Part shown: positions 974 through 32,000 of the stretch, one piece after another
How positions within the stretch are numbered: the first letter of the stretch is position 1
Layout: each line of letters starts with the position of its first letter
Assembly (NCBI RefSeq): GCF_001458695.1
Contig: NZ_LN885086.1
Span: 3,210,001-3,242,000, forward strand
Reading direction: 5' to 3'
Source: Candidatus Nitrospira inopinata
GTDB lineage: Bacteria > Nitrospirota > Nitrospiria > Nitrospirales > Nitrospiraceae
Length of the DNA stretch: 32,000 bases
Notes under the pieces: model-generated
Told to the model about the DNA's origin: nothing
What the model saw: the letters and a program-made list of their open reading frames with translations, nothing else
Database searches by the model: none
Made by a program: the position numbers and the translations under genes

Positions 974-1164
974 CCTCCTGGGACCGGACCGTCAAACTCT
1001 GGGAAGGGGGCTCTGGGAAGGGGGCGCCAAACAAGACAAGTAACGATGCTCCTCACGGCAACAGGTTGCCAAAATTAGAATCGAATAGAATCGGAATGTC
1101 CGCAACTTTCTTGACGACGGCATACCGCCACTTTCCATATGTGCCATCGGCATTGACCGCCGCC
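974..1164. repeat. Direct repeat copy B (~191 bp): orphan WD40 tail remnant + spacer + authentic 3' end of res
   Basis: Homologous to 81-257. It carries a perfect 14-bp tandem duplication, ctctgggaaggggg at 997-1010 and 1011-1024. The duplication frameshifts the WD40-tail remnant (974-1043), which has no upstream coding continuation. Confidence 0.9.
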
Positions 1165-4172: not shown

Positions 4173-4182
4173 TGAGTGTCGG

Positions 4183-4584
4183 TCAAGTTTGCAAGACAGC
4201 CTGAGGGGTTTTCCGTCCCCGTGCCGTCCGGTCGAAGTCGGCATCAAAGCGCACGATGACGAGGTTATATTTGTCGGCAGTCACATATTGATAGGCGTCG
4301 TCGAAATCGAGTCCGAACTGTTTCGAGCGCCGAGCAACATCCGCCAGATCGGCTGGGGCCAGTCGTAACAACGTCAGGCCACCGGTAAAAAGCAAGTCCT
4401 CGACGGCTCGTAGGAAGACATCGTGCAGGTTTCGTCGGATCGGCAGGATACCCAGCGAATAGAGCGAAAACTCCGTGAGAAAGAGCTGCTCAGAAGGAGC
4501 ACGTTCAAGAAATCGTTTCACTTCTTCCGATTTGGCTTGTCGGAGCAAGACTTCCAGGACGAGGTTAGTGTCCACGAGATACAT
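4183..4584 (-). CDS. vapC: PIN-domain toxin (VapC-like)
   Basis: Start ATG 4584 (MYLVDTNLVLEVL...). The conserved acidic PIN residues are present (D in LVDTN, E in TEFSL, D in DDAYQ, D in FDADFD). It overlaps the upstream antitoxin ORF by 20 nt. The N-terminal extension in the ORF track is judged non-coding. Confidence 0.85.
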   Translation of the reverse strand: MYLVDTNLVLEVLLRQAKSEEVKRFLERAPSEQLFLTEFSLYSLGILPIRRNLHDVFLRAVEDLLFTGGLTLLRLAPADLADVARRSKQFGLDFDDAYQYVTADKYNLVIVRFDADFDRTARGRKTPQAVLQT

Positions 4585-4789
4585 CGTCACCCCACCATTC
4601 GAGGATCTTATGCTGCAGTTCAACGGAAGAGTGCTGATCCCGCAAGTCAGCAAGCGCCCCCTCCCAAGCAAACTTCATTTTGCCTCTGGGATGGGGAACA
4701 CGCCGATCAATCAAGAACTTGACAAAATCCTCCACTTCACGCCGGAGATCAGGGGGCAAGTCTTTGATCCGGTCCTCGAGAGATGGCAT
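4565..4789 (-). CDS. DUF2281-type antitoxin partner of the PIN toxin
   Basis: MPSLEDRIKDLPPDLRREVEDFVKFLIDRR... followed by ...SVELQHKILEWW matches the DUF2281 pattern I know from PIN-associated antitoxins. A strong RBS (GAGGAGGA) lies 8 nt upstream of ATG 4789. Confidence 0.8.
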   Translation of the reverse strand: MPSLEDRIKDLPPDLRREVEDFVKFLIDRRVPHPRGKMKFAWEGALADLRDQHSSVELQHKILEWWGDDVSRGH

Positions 4790-4830
4790 AGCGTAGATCC
4801 TCCTCTTTGGTATCGATCAAATCCATCTTA

Positions 4831-13417: not shown

Positions 13418-14875
13418 TCAGGCAGGCTCTTCGTCGTCCTCGTGATGGTCGCCGTACGGAGAAGGGATCCCATAACGTTTGCATTTCTCCCAGAGCGCCT
13501 TGCGCGACAGACCTAGCACCTTGGACGCCGTCGTCCGGCTTCCCTCGACCCGCTCCAAAACGGAGACGATGTATTCCTTTTCAAATTGCTCGCGCGCCGC
13601 CGCGAGCGGCATCAACGGTCTGTGGGCGGCTTGCTTGCCACCGGTCAATCCTTCGTTGCAAAAGCCGCACGACTCTTGCGGGGGGCCGCCAAGATAGGGA
13701 CAGGACTGAAAGCCGCAGAGATCGGTCGGCTCAATCACCTGGCGCTCATGGCCTAAGGCCACCGCCCGCTCGACGATGTTTTCCAGCTCGCGCACGTTTC
13801 CCGGATAGGAATATCGCAGCAACAGCTCGCGGGCTGCCGGCGAGAACCCCTTGAGCTTTTTGTTCAGTTTGGCGGCGCAGGTTTCGATGACGTGCTCCGC
13901 AATGAGCATGATGTCTTCCCGCCGTTCCCGGAGCGGCGGAATCACGATTTGCACCACGTTCAGCCGATAAAACAGATCGTCGCGAAACCGACCCTGGGCG
14001 ACCTCTTTGCGAAGATCCTTTTGGGTGGCGCACACCAATCGGACGTCGGCGTCGATGGTGTCGTTACCTCCGACCCGCTCGAACTTCCTCTCCTGAAGCA
14101 CTCGCAGCAACTTCACCTGGACCACCGGCGACAGTTCCCCGATTTCATCCAGGAACAACGTCCCCCGATGGGCCAATTCAAATCGCCCTCGTCGCTGGCG
14201 GAGGGCGCCGGTGAAGGCGCCTTTCTCGTGGCCGAACAGCTCGGCCTCCAGCAACGTTTCCGGCAGGGCGGCGCAACTCACCTTGATCAACGGGCCGTCC
14301 CGCCGCGGACTGTTCTGATGCACCGCATTGGCGACCAGTTCCTTCCCCGTTCCGCTTTCGCCCAGAATCAATACCGTCGAATCGGTCGCCGCGACCAGCT
14401 TGATCTTTTCCAAGACCGCCCGCATCCGGCTGTTGGCTCCCAGAATGCCGCCGAAGCTGAACTTGTTCTCCAACGTCGCCTTGAGGTCCTCGTTTTCTCG
14501 CCGCAGCATCACGACGCGCGCGATCCGCTCGATGATCAACAACAGTTCGTCCATCTGGAACGGTTTGGTGACGTAGTCCGCCGCTCCCAGTTTCATCGCC
14601 CCCACCGCCGTTTCCACGGAACCGTGCGCGGTGATGACCACCACCTCCGTTTCAGAACTCCGATCCTTGGCCGCTTTCAGGACGGTCAGCCCGTCGCAGC
14701 CGGGCAGCCGGAGATCGGTGATCACCACGTCGAACCGTCTCTGCCCGACGGCCTCGACACCCTCCATCCCGGACGAAGCCGTCTGCACATCGTATCCGAC
14801 GGCCTCCAGCGCATCCACCATCGAGAGCCGAATCAACGGCTCATCGTCCACCAGCAGGATCGAGAGTCCTTTCAC
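13418..14875 (-). CDS. Sigma-54-dependent response regulator (NtrC family: REC + AAA+ + Fis-type HTH)
   Basis: REC domain (ILLVDDE...D...DLRLPG...K). AAA+ domain with GESGTGKE, GAFTGA and FLDEIGEL. C-terminal HTH (AS.VLGLSRKALWEKCKRYGI). The preferred start is GTG 14875, which overlaps the kinase stop as GTGA. The ORF-track start at 14920 would overlap the kinase by 49 nt. Confidence 0.92.
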   Translation of the reverse strand: MKGLSILLVDDEPLIRLSMVDALEAVGYDVQTASSGMEGVEAVGQRRFDVVITDLRLPGCDGLTVLKAAKDRSSETEVVVITAHGSVETAVGAMKLGAADYVTKPFQMDELLLIIERIARVVMLRRENEDLKATLENKFSFGGILGANSRMRAVLEKIKLVAATDSTVLILGESGTGKELVANAVHQNSPRRDGPLIKVSCAALPETLLEAELFGHEKGAFTGALRQRRGRFELAHRGTLFLDEIGELSPVVQVKLLRVLQERKFERVGGNDTIDADVRLVCATQKDLRKEVAQGRFRDDLFYRLNVVQIVIPPLRERREDIMLIAEHVIETCAAKLNKKLKGFSPAARELLLRYSYPGNVRELENIVERAVALGHERQVIEPTDLCGFQSCPYLGGPPQESCGFCNEGLTGGKQAAHRPLMPLAAAREQFEKEYIVSVLERVEGSRTTASKVLGLSRKALWEKCKRYGIPSPYGDHHEDDEEPA

Positions 14876-17800
14876 GGAGCCCGCTCCACCAACGAATGAT
14901 CGCGCGATACCGGCAAGCACAGCGTGAACGTGGTCCCCTTGCCGACCTCGCTGTCCACCAAAATTCTGCCGCCGTGCCGTTCGACGATGCCCAGATTGAC
15001 GGACAGGCCCAATCCCGTCCCTTCGCCCTCGCCTTTCGTCGTAAAGAAGGGATCGAACACACGGGGGAGGATGGACGGAGGGATGCCGGAGCCGGTATCG
15101 CGGACTTCGACTCGGCAGACTCCCTCGGCGATCGAGGTCCGAATGGTCAAGACGCCTCCGTTCTTCATCGCCTGAACGGCGTTCAAGATCAGATTCATCA
15201 ATACCTGTTCGATCATATGGCTGTCCACCATCACGTTGGGCAAGCCGAGCCCCAACTCGGTCTCCAGCGCGATGCGGTTGGGAGCGAACAGGTGGGTGGT
15301 CAGCGTCAACACCCGCTCGACAATCTGGTTGATGTCGGCCGGACTGAATTCAGGCTCGTGCTGTTGGGAGAAATCCAATAACTGCCGAACGATCTTCTGC
15401 ACCCGCCTGACGCCGTGCTCCATGGAGGCCCAGTACTCCTCTTGCCGGGCCGGGGAAATGCCGCCTTTTCTCAGGTTGTAAAGGCAGTTGAGGATGCCTC
15501 CGAGGGGATTGTTGATTTCGTGCGCCACGCCGGCCGCAAGTTTTCCGATGGACGCCAATTTTTCGGCGTTGCGGATCTGCTGCTCCAACTTTTTCGTCTC
15601 CGTCATGTCGCGGGCGATCCCGAGCACGCCGAGAATCCGGCCCTCGGCGCCTTGGAGGGGGGAGACGCTGATCATCGCCGTTCGGATCTCGCCCCGCTTG
15701 GTCACGATTTCCACCTCGTACACCTGTTTCGCACCGATATCTAAGGTGGCTTTGAGGCGCCGGCCGCGGTGACGCCGTGAGAGTAACGAGAGATAGGGAC
15801 GGCCCAGCAGATCGTCCTTGCGATACCCCCAGGCGCCGACCTTGCCGTTGACATAGGTGAATCGCTGCTCCGTATCGAGCGTGTAGATGACGTCGTTGGC
15901 GTTTTCCAGCAAATTTTCCAAGTACTGCTTCGTTTCCTCGATTTCCCTTGTCCGTTCCCTCACCTTGATCTCGAGGTCTTCCCGATAGGACTCCAACTGC
16001 CGCTCGAGCTTTTTCCGGTCCGTAATGTCCCGCATCTGCACCATGACCAGGTCCCGATCGGCGCCCCCGGCGCCGATCAGATTCATCTCGACCGGCACCA
16101 CGCGGCCGTCGCAGTGCATGACGGCAATTTCCCTCGTCAAAACCCGCTGGTGGCCGCCTCCGATCTCCGCCAACCATTCCTTGAACTCACGGTGACGGTC
16201 CTCTGCGATCAGATCGAGAATGTTCCGCCCGACGACGCCGGCCTCCGCGTAGCCCAGCACCTGTTCCTCGCGCTTGTTCACGGCGGCGATCATTCCCCGG
16301 GCGTCGATCATGAACACCGAGTCGGCGACCAGATCGAACAGGGCCTTGTAGCGGGCCTGCGAGGCGGCCAACTGCCGTGTGCGCTCCGAGACGGCCTGCT
16401 CCAGTCCCGCCGTATAGCGATGCAGCTCTTGCTCCAACCGGCGCCGCTCCGTGACGTCCCGGACGAAGGCGCGGGAATAAATCAACCCGCCGCGCTCACG
16501 GTCGAGAAGCGCCGTGGCGTGAATTTCGACGTCGATCGACCGTCCGTCCTTCGCCACGAGCAGGGTTTCCATGGACCCCTGTCCCCGCGAGACCAATTGC
16601 TCGAGAAAATGCAATGTCCGCGGTTCCTCTCCCTTCGGCACCACTTCCCAAAGCCGAAGGGCCAGCATTTCTTCGAGCGTATAGCCCAATTTGTCGAGCC
16701 CCGTCTTATTCACGTGGACGAACCGGCCGCCGCGATCCATCTGATAAATCATCTCCGGCGAATGTTCGATCAAATCGCGATACCGCTCCTCCAACTGTTT
16801 GACATCGGCCATCTGCCGTTCGATTTGCCCGAACGACCGTTGCAGATTGGCGGCCATGTGATTGAACGCTTCCGCCAGTTGTTCGATTTCATCGCCGGTT
16901 TTGAGATCAAGCCGCCGGTCCAACCGTCCGCTCCCGATCTCCCGCGCCCCCTCCTGCAACAGTTTGATCGGACCGGCGATGCGCCCCGCCATCACCACCC
17001 CGATTCCGCCGAGCACGGCCAATACCGTTCCGCCGAACAACAGGATCTTGGTCATCAACTCGCCGAGGGGAGCGAAGATTTCTCCGGGATCCTGCCGCAC
17101 GACGACCAGCCAATGCCGGCCTCCGAGGCTCCCCGCGGCAAGACCGTCGGCGAATCGCACGGGCGCGTACCCGATCATGCCTCCTTCGCTCCCGTGCGAA
17201 TCGTCATCGACCGACGCCCACCCGGGTTTGAGCGCCCCCAACAGGCCGACGACCTCTGGGCGGATCGTGTGCGCTTCCGGAGCCAGCACCGGACATAGAA
17301 CCACGACGCCGTCCGAACCGACCAACATGGCGTGCCCCGTGGCGCCGAGTGAAACTTCCGCAATGGAATGGAACACGGTGTCGCGTCGAAGCAGAATCGT
17401 GATCGCCCCGATCGCCGTCTTTTGCCCTTCGTCCATGATGGGCACCGCGACGGTCACGACGTGCGTCCCGAAGGCGGGATCGAACGCCACGTCGCCCACG
17501 TAGGGCCGCGCCCCGCCGTCTTGCACGACGGCCCGCCACCACGCCGTCTTCTTGTACCAATACTCCACCTGGGGAATGGAACTGATCACCAGGGCTCCCT
17601 GCTCGTCCGTCACCAGAATGCCGACGTAGTCGGACTTCCGAATCTCATGCCAGCGGATCAGCGAATTCGTCGAGATTCGGTTGACGAACAACGGAAACTC
17701 GCTGCGCGAATCCCGCTGCCCCCAGCGCCGCTGCCAATCCTTGATGATGGCCTCGATGGCGCGGGAATCCTTGCCTTCATAGGTTCGATTGGCTTCCAAG

Positions 17801-18057
17801 ACGGCGGCGCGAAGAAACGGCATGGTGGCGAGCTGTTGCGCCTCGTTGACGGTGCGGGTCACCTGCATTTCGACGCGGCGGGCGGCCTCGACGGCGGCTT
17901 CTTTGAAATTCGCTCCCGTTGTCTCGCGTAACGCCCGGCGCTCTTCGAGATAGAGCAGGATCAGAAACAACGTCAGGGGCAGGAGGCCGACCACCACGAT
18001 CGCCGCGATGATCTTGCGCTGGAGGCTGTGGAACCGGCTCCAGAATGTCATGCCCAT
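14872..18057 (-). CDS. Sensor histidine kinase: TM - double-Cache-like periplasmic domain - TM - HAMP - 3 PAS - HisKA - HATPase_c
   Basis: An N-terminal TM, ~300 aa extracytoplasmic region and second TM. HAMP (IAGPIKLLQEGAREIGSG...). Three PAS modules (ERYRDLIEHSPEMIY..., ARYKALFDLVADSVF..., LENLLENANDVIY...). H-box AAGVAHEINNPL. N/G boxes NLILNAVQAM, DTGSGI, GTGLGLS. Confidence 0.92.
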   Translation of the reverse strand: MGMTFWSRFHSLQRKIIAAIVVVGLLPLTLFLILLYLEERRALRETTGANFKEAAVEAARRVEMQVTRTVNEAQQLATMPFLRAAVLEANRTYEGKDSRAIEAIIKDWQRRWGQRDSRSEFPLFVNRISTNSLIRWHEIRKSDYVGILVTDEQGALVISSIPQVEYWYKKTAWWRAVVQDGGARPYVGDVAFDPAFGTHVVTVAVPIMDEGQKTAIGAITILLRRDTVFHSIAEVSLGATGHAMLVGSDGVVVLCPVLAPEAHTIRPEVVGLLGALKPGWASVDDDSHGSEGGMIGYAPVRFADGLAAGSLGGRHWLVVVRQDPGEIFAPLGELMTKILLFGGTVLAVLGGIGVVMAGRIAGPIKLLQEGAREIGSGRLDRRLDLKTGDEIEQLAEAFNHMAANLQRSFGQIERQMADVKQLEERYRDLIEHSPEMIYQMDRGGRFVHVNKTGLDKLGYTLEEMLALRLWEVVPKGEEPRTLHFLEQLVSRGQGSMETLLVAKDGRSIDVEIHATALLDRERGGLIYSRAFVRDVTERRRLEQELHRYTAGLEQAVSERTRQLAASQARYKALFDLVADSVFMIDARGMIAAVNKREEQVLGYAEAGVVGRNILDLIAEDRHREFKEWLAEIGGGHQRVLTREIAVMHCDGRVVPVEMNLIGAGGADRDLVMVQMRDITDRKKLERQLESYREDLEIKVRERTREIEETKQYLENLLENANDVIYTLDTEQRFTYVNGKVGAWGYRKDDLLGRPYLSLLSRRHRGRRLKATLDIGAKQVYEVEIVTKRGEIRTAMISVSPLQGAEGRILGVLGIARDMTETKKLEQQIRNAEKLASIGKLAAGVAHEINNPLGGILNCLYNLRKGGISPARQEEYWASMEHGVRRVQKIVRQLLDFSQQHEPEFSPADINQIVERVLTLTTHLFAPNRIALETELGLGLPNVMVDSHMIEQVLMNLILNAVQAMKNGGVLTIRTSIAEGVCRVEVRDTGSGIPPSILPRVFDPFFTTKGEGEGTGLGLSVNLGIVERHGGRILVDSEVGKGTTFTLCLPVSRDHSLVERAP

Positions 18058-25220: not shown

Positions 25221-25835
25221 TTAACTTCCAATGCGAGGGCTTCCCGCCATTTTTCTGGCCGCTTCCAGCTCCTCCGGCGTGTTGACATTGAAAAACGACC
25301 GCCCCTCCGGGTCAAGGCCGCTCATTTCCGTCTGCTTGACCCATCGAACCCGAAGACTCGCCTCATCAACAACGTCTTTTATACTGAGCCGGCCGCTCTG
25401 CACCATCTTCTCGATGACCGGCAGGCACCGACTGCTATAAAGCGCATGTGTCGGTTGCGGGCCGAACTCGGAACGCGGAATCACGACATCCACATTGTCT
25501 TTCAATGAAACCAGGTATCGGATCACGATCGGACTTATGAATGGCATGTCGCAGGCGACCGCAAAAATATATGGTGTCCGCGATAGTTTCAATCCCGTGT
25601 AGATCCCTCCTAGACTTCCACGATTTGGGATAAGATCCCTCCACACCGGTGTGGCGGCCTCGATCATCGTGGAATCATCTCCGACCACGATACTCACGCT
25701 CTGAAAGACGCCCTGCAACACGGCGAGGCTCCGCTCAAGAAGAGTATGTTCGCCCACGGAGAGAAATCTTTTATCCTTTCCCATCCGCCGACTTCGGCCA
25801 CCGGCGAGGAGAATACCCGTGACGTCGGAGATCAT
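25221..25835 (-). CDS. mobA: Molybdenum cofactor guanylyltransferase MobA
   Basis: Start ATG 25835 (MISDVTGILLAGGRSRRMGKDK). Also GSLGGIYTGL and VACDMPF. The longer ORF-track N-terminus is judged non-coding. Confidence 0.88.
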   Translation of the reverse strand: MISDVTGILLAGGRSRRMGKDKRFLSVGEHTLLERSLAVLQGVFQSVSIVVGDDSTMIEAATPVWRDLIPNRGSLGGIYTGLKLSRTPYIFAVACDMPFISPIVIRYLVSLKDNVDVVIPRSEFGPQPTHALYSSRCLPVIEKMVQSGRLSIKDVVDEASLRVRWVKQTEMSGLDPEGRSFFNVNTPEELEAARKMAGSPRIGS

Positions 25836-25861: not shown

Positions 25862-25898
25862 AAAAACAAAGAGGGGGTGGGAAAATCCCACCCCCTCT
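25862..25898 (-). terminator. Rho-independent terminator closing the cytochrome operon
   Basis: Perfect 12-bp GC-rich stem, agagggggtggg (25870-25881) pairing with cccaccccctct (25887-25898), and a 5-nt loop. On the minus strand it is followed by TTTGTTTTTA. It lies 35 nt downstream of the stop at 25933. Confidence 0.8.
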
Positions 25899-25932
25899 CT
25901 CGCTTGCCAATATTCTCGTGAGGCCAACCCGT

Positions 25933-27708
25933 TTACAGGGTTTTTCCTTTCTTCTTGTTGGCGCGGCGCGTCAAGACCCACCCTTCGAGAAACACAACGC
26001 CGACGGCAATGACAACAGGATAAATGTAGGTTTCTTGTGGGATCGGAGGATTCATAAACGTGTAATAAAAGGCCGATACGGCCATCTTTCGGCCCGCGTC
26101 CCCGTTGTGGCCGTCCCATGCGAAGAAGACCGTGGGAATGTATTGGCCCACTTCAAAAAACGTGTCTTCGTCATAGTCCTGGTCTTTCTTGTTTCCCAGG
26201 GGACGTTCGATCATCACGTACCAACGACCATTCTTCCATTCGCTTTTCAGGACTTTCAGATGCTCTTCGTAGTTATCGCGCTCCTCAAAGTCCTTATCCC
26301 ATCCGGTCCCTTTGAAAGCCCTGATGGAGCCATCGGCTTCCCACTTCACAATATCGACCGGAAACTGCTCGTTCGTTCCAAACAGGTAGCGTGGCTTAAT
26401 GGGAGCGGGCAGTTCTTTCCATTTGACAGGAGTTTCAATGGCGATGGCGTCGTTATAGACAGGATAGTTATTTTGCTTCGCCGCAATGGAACCTTCCTCT
26501 CCAGTGGTCGGTTCTTGTTCTTGAATATCAATGTTGACTGCCGTTGGAGCCCAGGGCAATTTTCCCTCGGCCACGCTCTTTGTTCGGTCATCCCATTCCA
26601 AGAGATAGGCAATGGACTTGTCGTTGTACAGAGACCGAACCCATATGTCATCAATTCGATTGACAAAATTTCTTGGCTTGTGGGTGATTTGCCCGCCCAT
26701 CGCGACGTAGCGTCGCGGAGCATTCTTCCACGCTTCGTTCTCAATATCAGCCGGAATTTCCCCTTCCACCATGTTTGAAGGGATCACAAAATTGATCTTG
26801 GGTTTATCGGTCAAAGGATCGATGGAAAGGGGTTTCCCCTCCTCATCACGCTCACATAAGGAATTCACAAAATTAGCAATGTCCCACCGCTCATCTATCG
26901 TCGTATTGTCCGCAAAGGACGGCATGGGGGTTCCATTGATCCCTGTCGAGAAGGTCCTGAAAATATTGACCACGCTGTAAGGGTCCTGCCGGCTTCCTCT
27001 AAAGTTCCAACATTTATGCCAATTGGCCGGCTGAATAGAAAATCCCCAATCGTCTTTCAAATTGAACGCATTTCCATCGCCACGACCTTCAAGGCCATGG
27101 CATTCGATACACTTCTTCTCAACGATCAGTTCGGATCCTCTTTTGATGCTTTCTTCCGTCGCTGATTTCGGTTTCAGCTCCGCCATATTGAGAATGGTTT
27201 GGGTCTCCGACTGCTTGTCCGTAAAGCTCCTATCTTTCACAAGCTGAGTTGTCACAAAGGCCAGCACTTGAAGTCGCTGTTCCTCAGTCAAAATACCTTC
27301 CCACGGCGGCATAGCGGATCCCGGCAATCCATGCGTCACTGTATCAAAGAGATCGTTCTGACCACGAACAGGCTTTTTGGCGTCGAAGAGGGGAAGTTCT
27401 CCGCTAGCCGTATGGCGAATTTTAAACGTCCCCTGATTAAAATTACGTGGGCGAGGCCAGAGCCGATCGGCGCCAGGCCCATCTCCGGCACCATCAACGC
27501 CATGACACCACACGCACTTTGTAAAATAGACACGCTTGCCGGCCTCGATCATTTCAGCGGAAGGCGGCGCCGCCAGTTCTCCCTTTTTAAATCCTTCAGG
27601 AATTCCCCCTTGAGCAAAAGCCGGAATTTCCATGCCAACGGTAATGAACACGGCCCCGAAGGCAATTGACAGCGCCAGCCCAGCCTTCTGAGTTCCACTG
27701 TTTTGCAT
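25933..27708 (-). CDS. Di-haem c-type cytochrome fused to an ethylbenzene-dehydrogenase/DOMON-like haem-binding domain, with a C-terminal TM anchor
   Basis: Signal peptide. CVWCHG and CIECHG with downstream GSAMPPW / GTPMPSF Met-ligand motifs. A ~300-aa C-terminal domain ends ...FFAWDGHNGDAGRKMAVSAFYY, reminiscent of EB_dh-type domains. Terminal TM helix IYPVVIAVGVVFLEGWVLT followed by RRANKKKGK. Confidence 0.8.
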   Translation of the reverse strand: MQNSGTQKAGLALSIAFGAVFITVGMEIPAFAQGGIPEGFKKGELAAPPSAEMIEAGKRVYFTKCVWCHGVDGAGDGPGADRLWPRPRNFNQGTFKIRHTASGELPLFDAKKPVRGQNDLFDTVTHGLPGSAMPPWEGILTEEQRLQVLAFVTTQLVKDRSFTDKQSETQTILNMAELKPKSATEESIKRGSELIVEKKCIECHGLEGRGDGNAFNLKDDWGFSIQPANWHKCWNFRGSRQDPYSVVNIFRTFSTGINGTPMPSFADNTTIDERWDIANFVNSLCERDEEGKPLSIDPLTDKPKINFVIPSNMVEGEIPADIENEAWKNAPRRYVAMGGQITHKPRNFVNRIDDIWVRSLYNDKSIAYLLEWDDRTKSVAEGKLPWAPTAVNIDIQEQEPTTGEEGSIAAKQNNYPVYNDAIAIETPVKWKELPAPIKPRYLFGTNEQFPVDIVKWEADGSIRAFKGTGWDKDFEERDNYEEHLKVLKSEWKNGRWYVMIERPLGNKKDQDYDEDTFFEVGQYIPTVFFAWDGHNGDAGRKMAVSAFYYTFMNPPIPQETYIYPVVIAVGVVFLEGWVLTRRANKKKGKTL

Positions 27709-27747
27709 AGCGTTCCTCTTCCTTAAATGAACAAGTCGGAAATACGA

Positions 27748-28785
27748 TCAATCCCAGGTTCGTGGATAGTACCCGGTATGCCAATATTCGAACAGAATGA
27801 CCTTCCACATTTCATCGACCGTCAAGTGCTGCTCCCAAGGCGGCATGACGGATGCCCATGGGAACCCCTCATTGGGAAGACCCATTCCACCTTTTGCGAC
27901 GCGCCAGAAAATAAATGTTTCTTGTAACTGAGCAATTGTTCCCGGATCAGTGAAATTCGCGGGGATGGGATTGAAGGCAAAAGCATGAAGGCCACGGCCG
28001 TTCAAATTGTCTCCATGACAGAAGTGACAATTTTGGAAAAAGATTTCTCCGCCTTCGCGGACATACTTTAAGTAACCTTCAGCCTTTTCGTCCCACGGAT
28101 TGGCATTCGGCTTCATGAGCCGACCCATGCCCTGCTCAACAATGAGCGAATTGCTATATTCTTGATCGTATTTGCCCTCAGGATTCACGCGATATGGGTT
28201 CAAAGAGGTTTGCAACACATACGTCTTACCGTGCACTTTGGTACTGGCAGGCGGAGCGGGATGCACGGTCCTCAATTCAATCGGTTCTTCCGATTTCGGC
28301 ATCATGACATTGTAAGAAAAGCCCCACGTCAGAATCGGGAGCGCGACCAGATAAACGTATCGGAGCACTTTATTGAACCCGGTCTGAGCATCCAAGACAT
28401 TCAAGATGGGTTGCTTGAACTTTTTCCAATCTTCTTCATTTGCGGAAACCCACATGAGAACGGCGACGAGCCCTACCGTTCCATACATGGCTCGAACGCT
28501 AAATGGAATGGGGGGATAGACCCTGTACTTGATGTAGAGAAGGAAGAAAATCCAAAATCCGATCCCTTGCCAGAATCTTGGAATTCCCATTCCCATCGCA
28601 TTGAGCATGTAGCTCAAACCAGTAAAGCCAAGAACATAGCACCCGACTTCGAAGAGCATCTGCATTGGCATGTACCCTTCGACAAGACGAATGGTATTCG
28701 AAGGAATAACATCGAATATCATTCCAGCCAGCAGTAGTAAACCGACAACCCCCACCAAGGCGCCGATCGACATCAGTGCTTTCAT
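27748..28785 (-). CDS. Polytopic membrane protein (about 5 TM) with a C-terminal mono-haem cytochrome c domain
   Basis: Hydrophobic N-terminal half, then GGEIFFQNCHFCHG...ASVMPPWEQHLTVDEMWKVILFEYW (class I cytochrome c pattern). RBS GGGAG upstream of ATG 28785. Confidence 0.8.
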   Translation of the reverse strand: MKALMSIGALVGVVGLLLLAGMIFDVIPSNTIRLVEGYMPMQMLFEVGCYVLGFTGLSYMLNAMGMGIPRFWQGIGFWIFFLLYIKYRVYPPIPFSVRAMYGTVGLVAVLMWVSANEEDWKKFKQPILNVLDAQTGFNKVLRYVYLVALPILTWGFSYNVMMPKSEEPIELRTVHPAPPASTKVHGKTYVLQTSLNPYRVNPEGKYDQEYSNSLIVEQGMGRLMKPNANPWDEKAEGYLKYVREGGEIFFQNCHFCHGDNLNGRGLHAFAFNPIPANFTDPGTIAQLQETFIFWRVAKGGMGLPNEGFPWASVMPPWEQHLTVDEMWKVILFEYWHTGYYPRTWD

Positions 28786-28835
28786 TGCTTACTCCCTTTA
28801 CGCTCTCGAACGGAAATATGAATCTTCCTTGCAGC

Positions 28836-30146
28836 CTATGAAATTTTCGGCGGCGGTGCCCCGACTTTCACCTGGGAGAGATAATCTACAATTTTCTTAA
28901 GAGCCCCCGCGCTCAATTTTTGACCAAATATTTTGGGCATCGTGTTGTCAGGGAACGGCTGAACCACGTACGCACTTGGATCCACAATCGACTCCATAAT
29001 GTACTCGGCCGGAGACTTGGCTGTTCCCTTGTAATCTGGCGCCTTGATGCGCTGAGCCGCCGTCGTTCCCTCCTCAAGCTTCGGGCCAATGGTCCCGACA
29101 GCCCCAGGAATGCCAGGTATGGTATGGCATGCGACACATTGAGCTTTGGCAAAAATTTGATCAACAGGCTCCGATCCATCCGCCATTAACGATGTCGCCC
29201 CACCTGCGGGTTTATCTTCCTGAAGCTGGGGGCGGTCCCCTTCAGGGATGAATTTTTCATAGGACTTGATCATCTCCTCAAAGGAAGGCGGTTCCAACCC
29301 TTCCCGCACATACATCCACGTATCAACGGCCGCCAACTCCGGAAGACTCAGAGAGATCGGTGGCTTATGAATGGCGGGCATAGGACTTTCTCTATCGTTT
29401 GTTCCCTTCACCCCATACCCTTCGACTACGTAACAACTCGGACAAGCATGAGACTCCGCAATGTATTCCTGAGCATTCTCGGCGGTTCCAGACCCTGGGA
29501 AGGCTTCTTTCACCGAATAGTCTCGTTTAGCCGGATTCCCCTTAGAATATTTGGGATCTTCCAGCCGCTCCTTGGAACGATTAACCAGCCCAAGCAAATT
29601 CGGAGCACGCTCCCCCAACATGCCGGCATGGAAGGCATGACACAAAGGACATTGTCCTTTTCCAATCGCCCCTTGTTCTTTATTTTTCCCGATTCCTCCG
29701 AAAATTATCTTCTCTCCTTCGTCGGCCAATTGCTGAGGCGTCATGGAGCTGAAATCAAGCTTCTCTTCTACCGGAGGAAATCCCCCTTCCACCTGAGGAA
29801 GCCAGTTTCCATATCCGGACAGAAACGCCGCGACAAAGAACATAAACCCACCGATCTTGAGCAGCGCGCTCAGATTGGTGAAGTACAAGGCCATGATAAA
29901 AGAGGTGGCGGTAATCATGACGAGAGAAACCGGCAGCAGCCTGCTCTCTCCGTAAAAATTCGTTTTGTAGTTGGCGATTGCCACAAATAAGAGAAAGGTC
30001 GAAATGATCCCGATAAACGTTTTAAAAACCGCCCGCTTTTTGGCGGAAGGATCACTGATCGATACCTGAAAATAAATAAGAAGCCCAGTCAGGACGGCGA
30101 GCGCCATCCAACCCATTGAAAGCGCCTCAGCAATCAAATTACCCAA
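28836..30146 (-). CDS. Membrane-anchored (about 4 TM) di-haem c-type cytochrome
   Basis: CPLCHAF and CVACHTI haem motifs with ESPMPAI / DNTMPKI Met motifs. TTG start at 30146 is supported by AGGAGGG 8 nt upstream. ATG 30116 is an alternative. Confidence 0.8.
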   Translation of the reverse strand: MGNLIAEALSMGWMALAVLTGLLIYFQVSISDPSAKKRAVFKTFIGIISTFLLFVAIANYKTNFYGESRLLPVSLVMITATSFIMALYFTNLSALLKIGGFMFFVAAFLSGYGNWLPQVEGGFPPVEEKLDFSSMTPQQLADEGEKIIFGGIGKNKEQGAIGKGQCPLCHAFHAGMLGERAPNLLGLVNRSKERLEDPKYSKGNPAKRDYSVKEAFPGSGTAENAQEYIAESHACPSCYVVEGYGVKGTNDRESPMPAIHKPPISLSLPELAAVDTWMYVREGLEPPSFEEMIKSYEKFIPEGDRPQLQEDKPAGGATSLMADGSEPVDQIFAKAQCVACHTIPGIPGAVGTIGPKLEEGTTAAQRIKAPDYKGTAKSPAEYIMESIVDPSAYVVQPFPDNTMPKIFGQKLSAGALKKIVDYLSQVKVGAPPPKIS

Positions 30147-30232
30147 GGTACTAACCCTCCTACCGCTTCACAAGAAAAAGAACGGCGACGCTGTCCTTCC
30201 TCTCACAAAGCCGATCCTTAGATAAAAGTCCA

Positions 30233-31954
30233 TCAATGGCTTCCAGCCGGCTGCGGAATAGCGCCAGGAACCCCGACCTTTGACTCAACCGGAGCCTTCT
30301 TCTCCGTCAAACTGCCGAGCCAGAAGACAAAGAGAATACTGATCCAGAAAAACAGAACGTTGGCCGAAATCACATTGGCCGCGAATCCTACCGTATGCGT
30401 ATAGGCCCACGGAGAGTTATCCCGCATAATTTCATTGACGTGCCAAAAGAGACGAACCGATGAACGAATATAGCCCATCAATCCCATCATCCAGGTAAAC
30501 GCGGTAGCCAGCATGATGAGCGCATATTGAGAGCGCGCCGAAATTTTTCCCCATTCGATCGGACCCAGCTGCTTGGCTCCCTTCATCATCATGCTATTGA
30601 GCGTGAACATGAAAAAGAGACACGAAAGAGTCGTTGCGACCTGAGGCACAGACAGGCCGACGCGTACGTTCGCAGGAATGTAATAGCCGTATATCGCGAG
30701 GAATATGATGTTTATATATGCACAGGCAAAAAACACCCCCATAAAGATATTGCCGAACCTTGCCCATGAGACAGTTGAAACTTTGTTGCCCCTCATGTAC
30801 CAGACAAAACTCAGCACGGTGGTTGTAATAATAACGTTAATGCCACCATTCTTCGCCGACATGACGCCATAGTTACCAAGAACCGGGTGCTGCTGCCCTC
30901 CCATCGCCTTCAATTCGGCAGGCGTCATCACCATGGTATGAGGAGTAATAAAGACCATGAATCCGCAGGCCAACAAAAAGACCAGGTACTTGATATATCG
31001 CTGGTACTTCTCAGCACCTCGCATGCGGCCCATGGCCTGCCATAAATAGTAATTGGTGCTCAAAAACAAGATCCCGATCATCGTTGCCTGAATAATAAAC
31101 AGCCAAGCCAGGAGACCGCCCATGAGCGTAATCCCCATTTGTTGCCTGTAGGCATAGACCTCTCTCATCAGCCAATAGCCGGCAAACGGAAGAGGAATGA
31201 GGAAGGCCACCCCGAGCGCCATCGCGATGTATCCCATCCAATCATAATGAGCGCGCTCTTCCTCTGTTTTTGCAGCCAGAAACTTATAGGCTGCGTACGC
31301 CGCCACCACGCCGCCACCGAACGCCATGTTGCCGAGAATACGGTGGAGGTTCAGCGGATTCCACAAAGCCGTGTGAATGACATGCCAAATATTCCCCAAA
31401 TAGCGGCCCTGCTCATCGACACCGGCTGGCGACATCATGAAACCGATCCACGAATTCGCCAAAAACATGAGCAGCGTGCCAATCACGTTCAGAATGACGG
31501 ACATGCTCAAGTGGATCCATTTCAGGAACCCCTCTTTCATTTTGTCCCAGCCATAGTAATAGATATAAAGGGTTCCACTCTCCGCAACGAACATCAAGGC
31601 ATAAATGTGCATCACGGGACGGAAAATGCTTGATAGGTACGAGAAAAAGGTTGGATACAGCGTCAGGAATGTAAAAATAAGAATCCCGCCCAGGATGGCC
31701 GTCAGCGAGTAGGCGGTCAGGCTGATCTTAATAAAATCATACGCCAACTGATCATATCGCTTAGCAAGCGCCTTATCCTTCGTGACCACCCCCATAAACT
31801 CAATGATCATGCAGAAAATCGGCACGGCAAGAACAAAACTTCCATAATAGAGATGCTGCTGATTGGCAAACCAGAGCAAGACACGGCTTTCAAAGTTGTA
31901 TCGCGGATAATCGGCGGGGCCGTCCGTCGTTTTAGGCGCAGGAGCGCCGACCAC
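30233..31954 (-). CDS. Cytochrome bd-like oxidase subunit I family protein (CydA-like, about 13-14 TM); 5' end uncertain
   Basis: CydA-type motifs are present: N-terminal His in WFANQQHLYYG, then FLANSWIGFMMSPAGV and WNPLNLHRILGNMAFGG. The ORF-track start is a GTG at 31954, but the frame stays open (…KVEKARDVYYKTEGI) to the window edge at 32000, so the true start may lie outside the window. Confidence 0.85.
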   Translation of the reverse strand: MVGAPAPKTTDGPADYPRYNFESRVLLWFANQQHLYYGSFVLAVPIFCMIIEFMGVVTKDKALAKRYDQLAYDFIKISLTAYSLTAILGGILIFTFLTLYPTFFSYLSSIFRPVMHIYALMFVAESGTLYIYYYGWDKMKEGFLKWIHLSMSVILNVIGTLLMFLANSWIGFMMSPAGVDEQGRYLGNIWHVIHTALWNPLNLHRILGNMAFGGGVVAAYAAYKFLAAKTEEERAHYDWMGYIAMALGVAFLIPLPFAGYWLMREVYAYRQQMGITLMGGLLAWLFIIQATMIGILFLSTNYYLWQAMGRMRGAEKYQRYIKYLVFLLACGFMVFITPHTMVMTPAELKAMGGQQHPVLGNYGVMSAKNGGINVIITTTVLSFVWYMRGNKVSTVSWARFGNIFMGVFFACAYINIIFLAIYGYYIPANVRVGLSVPQVATTLSCLFFMFTLNSMMMKGAKQLGPIEWGKISARSQYALIMLATAFTWMMGLMGYIRSSVRLFWHVNEIMRDNSPWAYTHTVGFAANVISANVLFFWISILFVFWLGSLTEKKAPVESKVGVPGAIPQPAGSH

Positions 31955-32000
31955 AATGCCTTCGGTCTTGTAGTAGACATCTCTCGCCTTTTCAACTTTT

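What the first reader, a model, noticed from the sequence alone, without database searches (positions are those of the whole stretch)
25933..32000. Operon pairing a Q-loop-less, CydB-less cytochrome bd-like protein with three membrane-anchored c-type cytochromes: candidate non-canonical terminal oxidase module
Seen in sequence: four co-directional genes with gaps of 86, 50 and 39 nt, closed by a perfect 12-bp-stem terminator. The first gene has CydA signature motifs (ANSW...P.G; NP...HR..H/G) and about 13-14 hydrophobic segments. No cydB- or cydX-like ORF follows it. The segment that holds the quinol-binding Q-loop in CydA (after the HRILGNM helix) is only about 15-20 residues (KFLAAKTEEERAHYDW). 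The next three genes each combine TM segments with CxxCH domains (2 + 1 + 2 haem c sites). Established knowledge: canonical bd oxidases are CydA+CydB(+CydX) quinol oxidases with a long Q-loop and no c-type cytochromes. bd-like proteins have been proposed from Nitrospira genomes as novel terminal oxidases, but I know of no purified or biochemically characterised example. Inference: this is a cytochrome-c-fed, bd-derived redox complex whose subunit composition and chemistry are unknown.
Basis: partly seen in the sequence, partly recalled or inferred. Interest (0 to 1): 0.8.

Follow-up and report, generated by a model that had tools for sequence, protein, structure and literature searches.

The report
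Known Nitrospira bd-like cytochrome gene cluster
This is the Nitrospira copy of an already described four-gene cluster (a cytochrome bd-like membrane protein without a quinol loop, two membrane cytochromes c, and an NxrC-like haem b/dihaem c protein); the sequence observation is right, but its chemistry (oxygen reduction or another acceptor) has still not been tested by anyone.

Summary
Four co-directional minus-strand genes have gaps of 86, 50 and 39 nt and end in a strong terminator. Gene 1 is CydA-related by HMM and by predicted fold, has no Q-loop, and no CydB follows it. Genes 2-4 carry 2+1+2 CxxCH sites.

Three corrections:
- Gene 1 is cut by the window edge; about 51 N-terminal residues are missing.
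- In relatives, a conserved 43-aa single-helix ORF and a 52%-identical bd-like paralog lie upstream, outside the window.

The cluster is not new. It matches N. moscoviensis "bd-like_3 + two cytochromes c + alt_NxrC_2" (same chromosomal neighbourhood, 82-94% protein identity). It also matches the OR-N2 subfamily of Murali et al. 2021 and "TO_1" of Ca. Manganitrophus. The gene order is kept in 64 of 65 testable loci across Nitrospirales and Nitrospinota.

The published Nitrospira terminal-oxidase candidate is a different paralog (NIDE0901-type, all-His). This protein has Gln and Phe at two of those His positions.

Most likely it is a periplasm-fed haem wire into bd-type haems. The acceptor is unproven: O2 about 0.45, quinone about 0.25. 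I found no biochemical characterisation. Already known; moderate-to-low interest.

The parts
30233..32000 (-). g1: cytochrome bd-like protein of the OR-N2 / 'bd-like_3' type. Its 5' end is cut by the window edge; about 51 N-terminal codons and the start codon lie beyond base 32000.
   Evidence: Frame open to 32000. It is 95% identical to P0001 (639 aa) from that protein's residue 52. Pfam Cyt_bd_oxida_I 1.5e-20. AF2 model pLDDT 86.9; the top 10 Foldseek PDB hits are CydA chains.
31145..31888 (-). CydA-homologous N-terminal part of g1 (helices TM1-TM6). This is the only part that sequence profiles recognise.
   Evidence: Pfam match to profile positions 2-241 of 418. PDB profile hit 9r2g_A (M. 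smegmatis bd-II CydA) at 1.8e-8.
31853..31855 (-). His equivalent to E. coli CydA His19, the axial ligand of the high-spin haem site (P0001 H100).
   Evidence: Aligned His-His with 9r2g_A. His in 56 of 60 family members. Matches H99 of the OR-N2 reference in Murali Table S6.
31343..31345 (-). His equivalent to CydA His186, the haem b558 ligand (P0001 H270).
   Evidence: Aligned with the His of 9r2g_A. His in 63 of 69 members. Matches H269 in Murali Table S6.
31580..31603 (-). Proton-channel stretch. Tyr (31601-31603) replaces CydA Glu99; Glu (31580-31582) matches Glu107.
   Evidence: Alignment to 9r2g_A. Y184 and E191 are invariant in A1 and A3. Correspond to Y183 and E190 in Murali Table S6.
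31109..31198 (-). Position of the Q-loop (between TM6 and TM7). It holds only about 30 residues with two short helices, and no quinol-binding loop.
   Evidence: AF2 secondary structure: H297-318, H321-335, H337-344, H349-374. The Pfam match ends here. Lucker 2013 reports that the quinol-binding residues are lacking.
30440..30892 (-). Conserved periplasm-facing His/Met cluster of the C-terminal helices. Gln (30890-30892) and Phe (30446-30448) stand where the all-His (NIDE0901-like) variant has His. His422, Met431 and His571 are kept.
   Evidence: Column counts in A4. Mueller 2021 describes the Gln/Phe variant for this conserved cluster.
28836..30146 (-). g2: four N-terminal TM helices (29799-30146) plus two Kustd1711-like c-haem domains. 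CPLCH at 29637-29651; CVACH at 29124-29138.
   Evidence: PDB 7zs0_A (Kuenenia Kustd1711, a dihaem cytochrome c of the anammox nxr cluster) at 2.6e-9, both domains matched. Kustd1711 haems are at about +350 mV.
27748..28785 (-). g3: 4-5 TM helices (28300-28785), the invariant motif EPIELRTVHPAPPA (28246-28287), and a monohaem c domain with CHFCH at 28015-28029.
   Evidence: Alignment A5 of 17 orthologs.
25933..27708 (-). g4: 'alt_NxrC_2' type. Parts: signal peptide (27613-27708); dihaem c domain (26848-27555; CVWCH 27502-27516, CIECH 27097-27111); EB_dh / type II DMSO-reductase gamma-like haem b domain (26062-26736); C-terminal TM anchor (25957-26046).
   Evidence: Pfam EB_dh 5.5e-11 and Cytochrom_C 3.1e-20. 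TIGR03477 3.8e-18. 6h5l_B 5.9e-42. Mass 66.6 kDa, about 63.4 kDa mature, against 66.8/63.8 kDa for N. moscoviensis alt_NxrC_2.
25868..25900 (-). Intrinsic terminator that closes the four-gene unit.
   Evidence: 15-pair stem, 9 G-C pairs, 3-nt loop, T-tail.

Best explanation
Identity (confidence about 0.95). This is the Nitrospira ortholog of the published cluster 'bd-like_3 (OR-N2 CydA homolog) - dihaem membrane cytochrome c - monohaem membrane cytochrome c - alt_NxrC_2'.

Mechanism (inferred).
1. The four products form one membrane complex that takes high-potential electrons on the periplasmic side.
2. The NxrC-like subunit g4 (one haem b, two haems c, membrane-tethered) accepts electrons from periplasmic nitrite oxidoreductase or from soluble cytochrome c.
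3. The three c haems of g2 and g3 relay those electrons to the b558-type haem of g1. This haem is held by the His186 equivalent at the periplasmic face, and the c haems stand in for the missing quinol/Q-loop donor.
4. The electrons end at the high-spin haem site held by the His19 equivalent in the conserved TM1-4 bundle.

The acceptor I consider most likely is O2, making this a copper-independent cytochrome c:O2 oxidoreductase built on a bd scaffold. My probability for O2 is about 0.45. The periplasm-fed haem-wire part alone is about 0.85.
For: Identity:
- Same gene order and flanks as the N. moscoviensis chromosome locus L033, with 94/82/89/86% protein identity for g1-g4.
- g4's mass and domain set equal alt_NxrC_2.
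- All OR-N2 signature residues of Murali Table S6 are present and invariant, offset by one residue.
- The 52% paralog lies a few genes upstream in relatives, as described for bd-like_4.

One functional unit:
- Gene order is kept in 64 of 65 loci from Nitrospirales to Nitrospinota while the flanks change.
- Short gaps and a single terminator.
- Natural fusions of a bd-like protein with a g2-like cytochrome c domain exist: P0121, P0139, P0122.
- The orthologs are among the 40 most transcribed genes in N. moscoviensis.

Haem wire:
- Five conserved CxxCH sites and the EB_dh haem b domain.
- The g2 homolog Kustd1711 has haems at about +350 mV, close to the nitrite/nitrate couple.
- The His19 and His186 equivalents and the Glu107 equivalent are conserved, and there is no Q-loop.

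O2 as acceptor:
- The conserved part is the O2-reducing four-helix bundle of CydA.
- Some Nitrospinae lack any haem-copper oxidase yet keep this cluster.
- In the Mn-oxidiser Ca. Manganitrophus the same architecture (TO_1) is the most highly expressed oxidase-like complex.
- No ion-pumping or quinone-site subunit is recognisable that would allow uphill quinone reduction.
Against: - No activity, haem content or subunit composition has been measured for any member.
- Glu99 is replaced by Tyr and the Glu445 equivalent by Ser.
- Gln and Phe stand at two positions where the all-His paralog, the usual oxidase candidate in Nitrospira, has His.
- According to the literature, the cluster is conserved in the nxr gene cluster of obligately anaerobic anammox bacteria. 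That fits an O2-independent role better. I could not re-verify the anammox gene order itself; I confirmed only the homology of g2 to Kustd1711.
- Physical association of the four proteins, and of g4 with NxrAB, is inferred from synteny and fusions only.
Confidence: 0.5

Rival explanations
1. Nitrite (cytochrome c):quinone oxidoreductase for reverse electron transport. The same haem wire delivers NXR-derived electrons to a still unrecognised quinone site in the bd-like subunit. The uphill step is paid by the proton-motive force, and the complex acts like an alternative complex III run backwards.
For: - Proposed by Lucker 2013, Kartal 2013 and Mundinger 2019.
- The literature reports conservation in anaerobic anammox nxr clusters.
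- g4 is NxrC-like.
- The molybdenum cofactor guanylyltransferase gene mobA lies directly downstream throughout Nitrospirales.
- Nitrospira has another, better oxidase candidate, NIDE0901-type.
Against: - The Q-loop and all known quinol-binding residues are missing.
- No ion-translocating subunit (Mrp/Nuo/NrfD-like) is present. NrfD_2 on g3 scores only E 0.036, below threshold.
- The gap from haems at about +350 mV to quinone is several hundred mV.
- Ca. Manganitrophus and the Nitrospina locus carry the unit without NXR genes nearby.
Confidence: 0.25
2. Passive membrane anchor and relay. The complex only docks periplasmic NXR to the membrane and hands electrons on to a separate terminal oxidase or bc complex. 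The bd-like subunit is a haem-bearing scaffold without a catalytic site of its own.
For: - Nitrospira NXR is membrane-associated although its main NxrC is soluble. alt_NxrC_2 has the mass of the 62 kDa band in the old nitrite-oxidising preparation.
- The acid residues of the bd active site are partly lost.
Against: - g1 is by far the most conserved of the four: 61% identity between phyla, against 33-48% for g2-g4.
- The His19-equivalent site and many polar periplasm-facing residues are conserved. That is unusual for a mere anchor.
- A 13-14-helix haem protein is an expensive anchor.
Confidence: 0.15
3. Reductase for another small oxidant (NO, nitrite, H2O2) that uses the bd-type haem site. This would explain its presence in both aerobes and anammox bacteria.
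For: - Canonical bd oxidases bind NO and have catalase or peroxidase side activities (established knowledge, cited).
- The cluster is shared between aerobes and anaerobes.
Against: No specific evidence. Expression at top-40 level under plain nitrite-oxidising growth fits a core respiratory role better than detoxification.
Confidence: 0.08
4. An ordinary cytochrome bd quinol oxidase subunit I, as many database records name it.
For: Source names such as 'cytochrome ubiquinol oxidase subunit I', and the Pfam family hit.
Against: - Only the first 241 of 418 profile positions match.
- There is no Q-loop and no CydB.
- Glu99 and Glu445 are not conserved.
- The extra C-terminal helices show no detectable similarity to the first two four-helix bundles of the same protein.
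Confidence: 0.02

Closest known systems
Nitrospira moscoviensis 'bd-like_3 - cytochrome c - cytochrome c - alt_NxrC_2' cluster (NITMOv2_3640 region; Mundinger et al. 2019, PMC6606698)
   Same: - Same four genes in the same order, with the same flanks (mobA-like, GT9, argS downstream; bd-like paralog upstream).
- 94/82/89/86% protein identity for g1-g4.
- g4 has the same signal peptide, TM helix, dihaem architecture and mass.
   Different: Only species-level sequence divergence. The closest genome found is Nitrospira sp. JZ-4_Bin198 (g1 99%, g2 97%).
OR-N2 subfamily of the cytochrome bd superfamily (Murali, Gennis & Hemp 2021)
   Same: - About 14 TM helices and no quinol site.
- Operon with several cytochromes c and an EbdC-like subunit.
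- Every listed signature residue is present: H99, Y183, E190, H213, H269, M430/N434, S563, W569, all at +1.
   Different: Nothing found. The subfamily also holds the NIDE0901-type paralog according to PMC12342949. That paralog differs from this protein at the Gln/Phe positions.
'TO_1' of Ca. Manganitrophus noduliformans (bd-like clade I + two cytochromes c + periplasmic CISM cytochrome b)
   Same: Same subunit architecture as described in the papers. Very high expression. Proposed O2 reduction with periplasmic high-potential electrons.
   Different: The host oxidises Mn(II), not nitrite. I did not retrieve the TO_1 locus itself. The one Manganitrophaceae-labelled relative I looked at (P0271, 42% identical) is an orphan copy next to a NuoF-like gene.
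Anammox nxr gene cluster (Kuenenia kustd1699-1713), including the dihaem cytochrome c Kustd1711 (PDB 7ZS0)
   Same: - The literature states that the bd-like gene, the mono- and dihaem cytochromes c and the alternative NxrC are conserved there.
- g2's two haem domains match Kustd1711 at 2.6e-9.
   Different: - Kustd1711 is soluble with a signal peptide, whereas g2 has four TM helices.
- In Nitrospira and Nitrospina the four-gene unit is not next to nxrAB.
- I did not re-verify the anammox gene order.
Canonical cytochrome bd quinol oxidase CydAB(X) (for example E. coli 6RKO, G. thermodenitrificans 5DOQ)
   Same: Fold of TM1-6 and beyond (Foldseek E 4.5e-9 to 3.7e-5, TM-score normalised to target 0.50-0.59). 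The His19, His186 and Glu107 equivalents are present.
   Different: - No Q-loop and no CydB.
- Glu99 is Tyr and Glu445 is Ser.
- Four to five extra C-terminal helices.
- An N-terminal signal or anchor helix plus a periplasmic stretch of about 60 aa.
- The partners are cytochromes c.
NIDE0901-type bd-like protein (bd-like_2), the published Nitrospira terminal-oxidase candidate
   Same: Same superfamily and overall helix count. It is also encoded with two cytochromes c and an NxrC-like protein.
   Different: - It carries the full His set; the window protein has Gln421 and Phe569.
- Its NxrC-like partner is 30 kDa without c haems.
- It sits beside Rieske/cytochrome b genes. None are seen within 10 kb in relatives of this locus.

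Membership tests
Cytochrome bd superfamily, OR-N2 subfamily (Murali et al. 2021) | CydA-like N-terminal helices with the His19-equivalent haem ligand | tested here: met
   Pfam 1.5e-20. His-His alignment with 9r2g_A. His in 56 of 60 members. All top 10 Foldseek hits are CydA.
Cytochrome bd superfamily, OR-N2 subfamily (Murali et al. 2021) | No quinol-binding site / Q-loop | tested here: met
   About 30 residues lie between TM6 and TM7 in the AF2 model. The Pfam match stops at profile position 241 of 418.
Cytochrome bd superfamily, OR-N2 subfamily (Murali et al. 2021) | About 14 transmembrane helices | tested here: met
   The AF2 model of P0001 shows an N-terminal helix 7-29 plus 13 long helices. 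The hydropathy scan agrees.
Cytochrome bd superfamily, OR-N2 subfamily (Murali et al. 2021) | Signature residues of Table S6 (H99, Y183, E190, H213, H269, M430/N434, S563, W569) | tested here: met
   All are present at +1 in P0001 numbering and invariant in A1. Verified in the window translation.
Cytochrome bd superfamily, OR-N2 subfamily (Murali et al. 2021) | Operon with several cytochromes c and an EbdC-like subunit | tested here: met
   g2, g3 and g4. Conserved in 64 of 65 loci.
Cytochrome bd superfamily, OR-N2 subfamily (Murali et al. 2021) | Oxygen reductase activity (implied by the 'OR' name) | not testable with these tools
   No biochemical data were found for any OR-N member.
N. moscoviensis bd-like_3 / alt_NxrC_2 cluster | Gene content and order: bd-like, two membrane cytochromes c, then an NxrC-like protein with signal peptide, one TM helix and two c haems, about 66.8/63.8 kDa | tested here: met
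   g4 is 66.6 kDa, about 63.4 kDa mature, against Table 2 of PMC6606698.
N. moscoviensis bd-like_3 / alt_NxrC_2 cluster | Orthology and synteny with the N. moscoviensis chromosome | tested here: met
   L033 (NZ_CP011801.1 3.434-3.452 Mb) has the same order and flanks.
N. moscoviensis bd-like_3 / alt_NxrC_2 cluster | Second bd-like paralog (bd-like_4) a few genes away | tested here: inconclusive
   Present in nearly all Nitrospirales relatives about 5.5 kb upstream at 48-57% identity. That region lies beyond the end of this window.
Canonical cytochrome bd quinol oxidase (CydABX) | Periplasmic Q-loop with quinol-binding residues | tested here: not met
   Lucker 2013 says the same.
Canonical cytochrome bd quinol oxidase (CydABX) | CydB subunit encoded next to CydA | tested here: not met
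   No such ORF in the window or in relatives.
Canonical cytochrome bd quinol oxidase (CydABX) | Glu99 and Glu445 at the di-haem site | tested here: not met
   Tyr aligns with Glu99. Ser stands at the Glu445 position according to Murali Table S6, and is conserved here.
NIDE0901-type (bd-like_2) putative haem-copper-like terminal oxidase | Complete set of His residues proposed for haem and CuB binding | tested here: not met
   The window has Gln (30890-30892) and Phe (30446-30448) where P0121, P0126, P0130 and P0139 have His. This matches the Gln/Phe variant described by Mueller 2021.
NIDE0901-type (bd-like_2) putative haem-copper-like terminal oxidase | Neighbourhood with Rieske/cytochrome b (CIII_1), bd-like_1 and the 30-kDa alt_NxrC_1 | tested here: not met
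   None within 10 kb on either side in L001 or L004. g4 is the 66-kDa dihaem type.
NxrC / gamma subunit of type II DMSO-reductase-family enzymes (EB_dh) | EB_dh haem b domain | tested here: met
   Pfam EB_dh 43.4 bits, above the 33.3 cutoff. TIGR03477 3.8e-18 but 65.6 bits, below its 169.85 cutoff, so it is a divergent member.
NxrC / gamma subunit of type II DMSO-reductase-family enzymes (EB_dh) | Met/Lys haem b ligands and binding to the NxrAB (alpha-beta) module | not tested
   The AF2 model of g4 was unusable (pLDDT 44.3). No PDB sequence hit for the domain. Binding to NxrAB needs experiment.
Haem-copper oxidase superfamily | COX1-type subunit I domain | tested here: not met
   No such Pfam or NCBIfam hit on any of the four proteins. 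No haem-copper oxidase subunit scored a significant Foldseek match; the best relative, nitric oxide reductase 3o0r_B, had E 0.88.

The most novel reading that the evidence does not exclude
This Gln/Phe-type bd-like complex, rather than (or as well as) the NIDE0901-type paralog, is a real energy-conserving cytochrome c:O2 oxidoreductase. It would be wired directly to periplasmic nitrite oxidoreductase through the NxrC-like subunit. That would make it a third architectural class of terminal oxidase: a bd scaffold, cytochrome c as donor, and no copper. The conserved 43-aa upstream ORF and/or the bd-like_4 paralog would be further subunits. The idea is already in print as a hypothesis, so only its proof would be new.
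Probability: 0.4. Interest if true: 0.8.

Novelty: already known. Interest (0 to 1): 0.3.

Why it matters
Nitrospira and Nitrospina produce most of the nitrate on Earth. It is still unknown how electrons leave their periplasmic nitrite oxidoreductase, which enzyme reduces O2, and how reducing power for CO2 fixation is made. This highly expressed, phylum-spanning cluster is one of two or three candidates for those steps.

The present window adds no new kind of system. It is a clean example of a known, biochemically untested one. Four details from this work could help the design of purification or modelling work:
- the conserved small upstream ORF;
- natural bd-like-cytochrome c fusions;
- the Gln/Phe against all-His distinction;
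- the homology of g2 to Kustd1711, whose haems are measured at about +350 mV.

Tried and rejected
1. Exact look-up of the truncated g1 product found nothing, because the gene is cut by the window edge.
It was repeated with A3.
3. The structure of g4 from a shallow alignment (all members at least 80% identical) gave pLDDT 44.3 and pTM 0.39. The model is unusable, so I ran no fold search and could not map the haem b ligands. phmmer of the g4 C-terminal domain against the PDB found nothing.
4. I tested the idea that the TM domains of g2 (4 helices) and g3 (5 helices) together replace the 9-helix CydB. It is weakened: the number of helices varies between lineages. The first helix of g3 is absent in many, and g2 is shortened in L074, L076 and L079. 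No TM residue is invariant apart from prolines.
5. I tested the idea that the extra C-terminal helices of g1 are an internal duplication or a fused CydB-like half. hhalign gave only a weak TM1-4 against TM5-8 signal (probability 58%, E 1e-4). Nothing linked either block to TM9-13 (probabilities 0.3% and 0.7%).
6. I looked for anammox orthologs among distant representatives. Those examined (P0147, P0125, P0271, P0279) were orphan paralogs in unrelated contexts. Conservation in anammox therefore rests on the literature plus the Kustd1711 match.
7. Cluster look-ups gave almost no organism names.
8. Which Met pairs with His270 as the Met393 equivalent could not be decided without model coordinates. 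M344 and M431 are both conserved.
9. Lucker 2010 (PNAS) and the ISME J version of Murali 2021 are not held. I used the preprint and later papers instead.

Full report
**1. What is in the window**

The last 6 kb carries four intact genes on the minus strand:
- g1, 30233 to beyond 32000
- g2, 28836-30146 (436 aa)
- g3, 27748-28785 (345 aa)
- g4, 25933-27708 (591 aa)

The gaps are 86, 50 and 39 nt, and g2, g3 and g4 each have a Shine-Dalgarno-like sequence. The unit ends in the strongest terminator-like site of the region, at 25900..25868, with a 15-pair stem and a T-tail. No terminator-like site falls in the three intergenic gaps.

The reading frame of g1 stays open to the last base of the window. 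Homologs are 637-656 aa long, and the 95%-identical P0001 aligns from its residue 52. So g1 is truncated by the window edge, and the listed GTG start at 31954 is not the real start.

**2. The four proteins**

*g1*
- It matches Pfam Cyt_bd_oxida_I at 1.5e-20, but only over profile positions 2-241 of 418.
- The only PDB sequence hit is a CydA, 9r2g_A, at 6.6e-6 for the single sequence and 1.8e-8 for a profile.
- I built an AlphaFold model of full-length P0001 from a 69-sequence alignment. It is confident (pLDDT 86.9, pTM 0.85).
- Its ten best Foldseek matches in the PDB are all CydA chains, at E 4.5e-9 to 3.7e-5 with target-normalised TM-scores of 0.50-0.59.
- The model has an N-terminal signal or anchor helix, a periplasmic stretch of about 60 residues, and 13 long helices.
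- The alignment to the solved CydA puts His100 (P0001 numbering; window 31853-31855) on His19 and His270 (31343-31345) on His186. Glu191 falls on Glu107, and Tyr184 falls on Glu99.

The Q-loop position comes one helix later. That position holds about 30 residues with two short helices (31109-31198).

*g2*
- It has four N-terminal hydrophobic helices and two c-haem domains.
- Both domains resemble Kustd1711 (PDB 7ZS0, 2.6e-9). Kustd1711 is the dihaem cytochrome c of the Kuenenia nxr gene cluster, and its haems sit at about +350 mV.

*g3*
- It has 4-5 helices, an invariant EPIELRTVHPAPPA motif, and one c-haem domain.

*g4*
- It has a signal peptide and a dihaem domain that matches chain B of Kuenenia entry 6H5L at 5.9e-42.
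- From memory, 6H5L chain B is the dihaem partner of an HAO-like octahaem protein. The tool output calls it only a 'conserved hypothetical cytochrome protein'.
- It also has an EB_dh / type II DMSO-reductase gamma-like haem b domain (Pfam 5.5e-11; TIGR03477 3.8e-18, below that model's cutoff) and a C-terminal anchor helix.

**3. Related loci**

All close relatives of g1 (84-96% identical) come from Nitrospira. A scan of one genome per species returned 80 loci from Nitrospirales/Nitrospiria (64-97%) and Nitrospinota (58-61%).

- Of the 65 loci with at least 6.3 kb downstream of the g1 homolog, 64 keep g2, g3 and g4 in the same order and direction. The exception is an extra g1 copy.
- The CxxCH counts (0, 2, 1, 2) are conserved almost without exception.
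- g1 is much more conserved between phyla (61%) than g2-g4 (33-48%).
- The flanks differ between groups. In Nitrospirales a MobA-like gene, a GT9 glycosyltransferase and argS follow the cluster, as in the window. In a Nitrospina locus the neighbours are hisD, DUF2064, GT9 genes and a curlin-repeat protein, with no NXR genes within 8 kb.

The conserved, mobile unit is therefore the four genes.

Among 50%-identity representatives the wider family has 934 members at E of 1e-3 or better. These include orphan copies and natural fusions of a bd-like protein to a g2-like cytochrome c domain (P0121, P0139, P0122). The fusions support physical contact between g1 and g2.

**4. It is a known cluster**

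- The N. moscoviensis chromosome locus L033 has the same genes and flanks, at 94/82/89/86% identity for g1-g4.
- Mundinger et al. [quoted passage not shown] It is among the 40 most transcribed genes, and a paralog (bd-like_4) lies a few genes away.
- g4 is 66.6 kDa, or about 63.4 kDa after the predicted cleavage. In relatives a 52%-identical paralog lies about 5.5 kb upstream.
- Lucker et al. 2013 had already noted the 14 helices, the conserved haem b ligands, the missing Q-loop and quinol residues, and the conservation of the cluster in Nitrospira, Nitrospina and Kuenenia.
- Murali, Gennis and Hemp 2021 named the type OR-N2. It has 14 helices, and its operons hold several cytochromes c and an EbdC-like subunit. 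Every signature residue in their Table S6 is present and invariant here, offset by one position.
- Yu et al. call the same architecture 'TO_1' in Ca. Manganitrophus, where it is the most highly expressed oxidase-like complex.
- Mueller et al. 2021 describe the conserved cluster as holding the bd-like variant with Gln and Phe in place of two His.

**5. Which bd-like protein is this?**

The Nitrospira 'novel terminal oxidase' of Lucker 2010 is the NIDE0901-type (bd-like_2). It is encoded near Rieske/cytochrome b genes, bd-like_1 and a 30-kDa alt_NxrC_1. No such neighbours occur within 10 kb of this locus in relatives.

In a family alignment two columns separate the variants. P0121, P0126, P0130 and P0139 have His at P0001 positions 421 and 569. 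The window protein and all its orthologs have Gln (30890-30892) and Phe (30446-30448). This agrees with Mueller's description.

So the window holds the NXR-linked bd-like_3 type, not the all-His candidate oxidase.

**6. How it most likely works**

Shown:
- One conserved four-gene unit.
- Five c-haem sites and an NxrC-like haem b domain, predicted to be periplasmic (signal peptide or N-terminal TM helices; inferred from topology).
- A bd-type membrane subunit that keeps the His19- and His186-type ligands but has no quinol loop.
- A homolog of g2 poised at about +350 mV.

Inferred: the four proteins form one complex. In it, g4 takes electrons from periplasmic NXR or cytochrome c. The c haems of g2 and g3 replace quinol as donor to the b558-type haem of g1. 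The electrons end at the high-spin haem site of the TM1-4 bundle.

The acceptor is open.
- For O2: the conserved part is the O2-reducing core of CydA. Some Nitrospinae lack any haem-copper oxidase yet keep this cluster. TO_1 is highly expressed in a Mn oxidiser. No recognisable quinone site or ion-pumping subunit is present.
- Against O2: the Glu99 and Glu445 equivalents are lost, the protein has the Gln/Phe substitutions, and the literature reports the cluster in anaerobic anammox bacteria.

| Reading | My probability |
|---|---|
| O2 reductase | about 0.45 |
| Proton-motive-force-driven quinone reduction (reverse electron transport) | about 0.25 |
| Relay or anchor only | about 0.15 |
| Other oxidant | about 0.08 |

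**7. Novelty and score**

But this is a rediscovery of a cluster discussed in at least six papers since 2010.

I found no purification, activity or structure for any member. A 2024 paper states that confirmation is lacking. The biology therefore remains an open and important question, and this window adds no new kind of system.

Small additions from this work:
- a conserved 43-aa single-helix ORF directly upstream of g1 in 73 of 79 loci;
- the fusion proteins;
- the match of g2 to Kustd1711;
- the correction of the Q-loop position.

Interest 0.3. Novelty class: already known.

Noticed in passing
L019:7792-7923 (99%-identical relative); also L033:7806-7928 and L001:9800-9931. In this window it would lie just beyond base 32000.: A conserved ORF of about 43 aa with a single TM helix (MSALNNPVIAVIVSLVIAVGYFTLVDHYLMEMQGLDFWYLFRQ*) ends about 75 nt before the g1 start. 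It is found upstream of g1 in 73 of 79 loci, with the motif (V/L)D(H/W)xLM(D/E)xQGLD(Y/F)(W/F)Y(L/M)FR(K/Q). It was not found in Nitrospinota or beside orphan g1 copies. It may be a small fifth subunit, like CydX/CydS by analogy only. I did not find it mentioned in the papers I read.
   Followed up: partly
L001:2165-9358 (upstream of the cluster in relatives; outside the window): A conserved upstream block holds DUF420, a PCP_red-domain protein, a 356-aa protein, the second bd-like paralog (52% identical; keeps all key His, Tyr, Glu and Met residues), DUF3047, a 120-aa protein and two FGE-sulfatase-domain proteins. These are possible maturation factors or a CydA' partner. None was examined further.
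   Followed up: partly
window 25221-25835 (-): A MobA-like molybdenum cofactor guanylyltransferase gene starts about 33 nt after the terminator. Its best NCBIfam hits are MobA models (5e-53), below the equivalog cutoffs. This adjacency is kept throughout Nitrospirales but not in Nitrospinota. NXR needs the bis-MGD cofactor, so it is a weak functional link.
   Followed up: partly
window 25933-32000 versus 1-25932: The cluster has 50.0% G+C against 59.1% for the rest of the window, with GC3 of 55-63% against 73% for argS and tgt. In relatives the cluster is only 2-5 points below its flanks, and in one Nitrospinaceae locus (L081) it is 2 points above them. The larger drop here is unexplained. Codon usage of highly expressed membrane proteins and an older transfer are both possible.
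   Followed up: partly
P0121 (889 aa), P0139 (807 aa), P0122 (784 aa): These are natural fusions of a bd-like protein with a C-terminal g2-like cytochrome c domain. The fusion includes one extra TM helix, which fits a cytoplasmic C-terminus of g1. P0121 and P0139 belong to the all-His variant.
   Followed up: partly
L044, L062, L064; L085, L086, L087, L089: Some genomes carry extra g1-like copies (74-84% identical) without g2-g4. More distant paralogs sit alone in unrelated contexts, one directly after a NuoF-like gene (L087).
   Followed up: no
window 27748-28785 (g3) and alignment A5: The first hydrophobic helix of g3 is missing in many lineages (for example L004, L046, L072). The number of N-terminal helices of g2 also varies (L074, L076, L079). 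The motif EPIELRTVHPAPPA, with an invariant His, follows the last helix in all 17 orthologs aligned.
   Followed up: partly
window 26848-27555 (g4 residues 52-287): The dihaem domain of g4 is strikingly similar (5.9e-42) to chain B of Kuenenia structure 6H5L, an entry that contains an HAO-like octahaem protein. The same dihaem module therefore appears to serve as a redox partner in two different nitrogen-cycle complexes.
   Followed up: partly
window 1053-7503 (-): Two large adjacent genes: a 1064-aa protein with a ResIII helicase motif and an 890-aa protein with an N6_N4 DNA methylase domain. They look like a restriction-modification or related defence pair, unrelated to the finding.
   Followed up: no
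window 13418-18057 (-): A multi-PAS/Cache/HAMP histidine kinase (1061 aa) is followed by a sigma-54-dependent response regulator (500 aa). Sigma-54 regulators are known near nxr genes in Nitrospira. No link to this cluster was tested.
   Followed up: no
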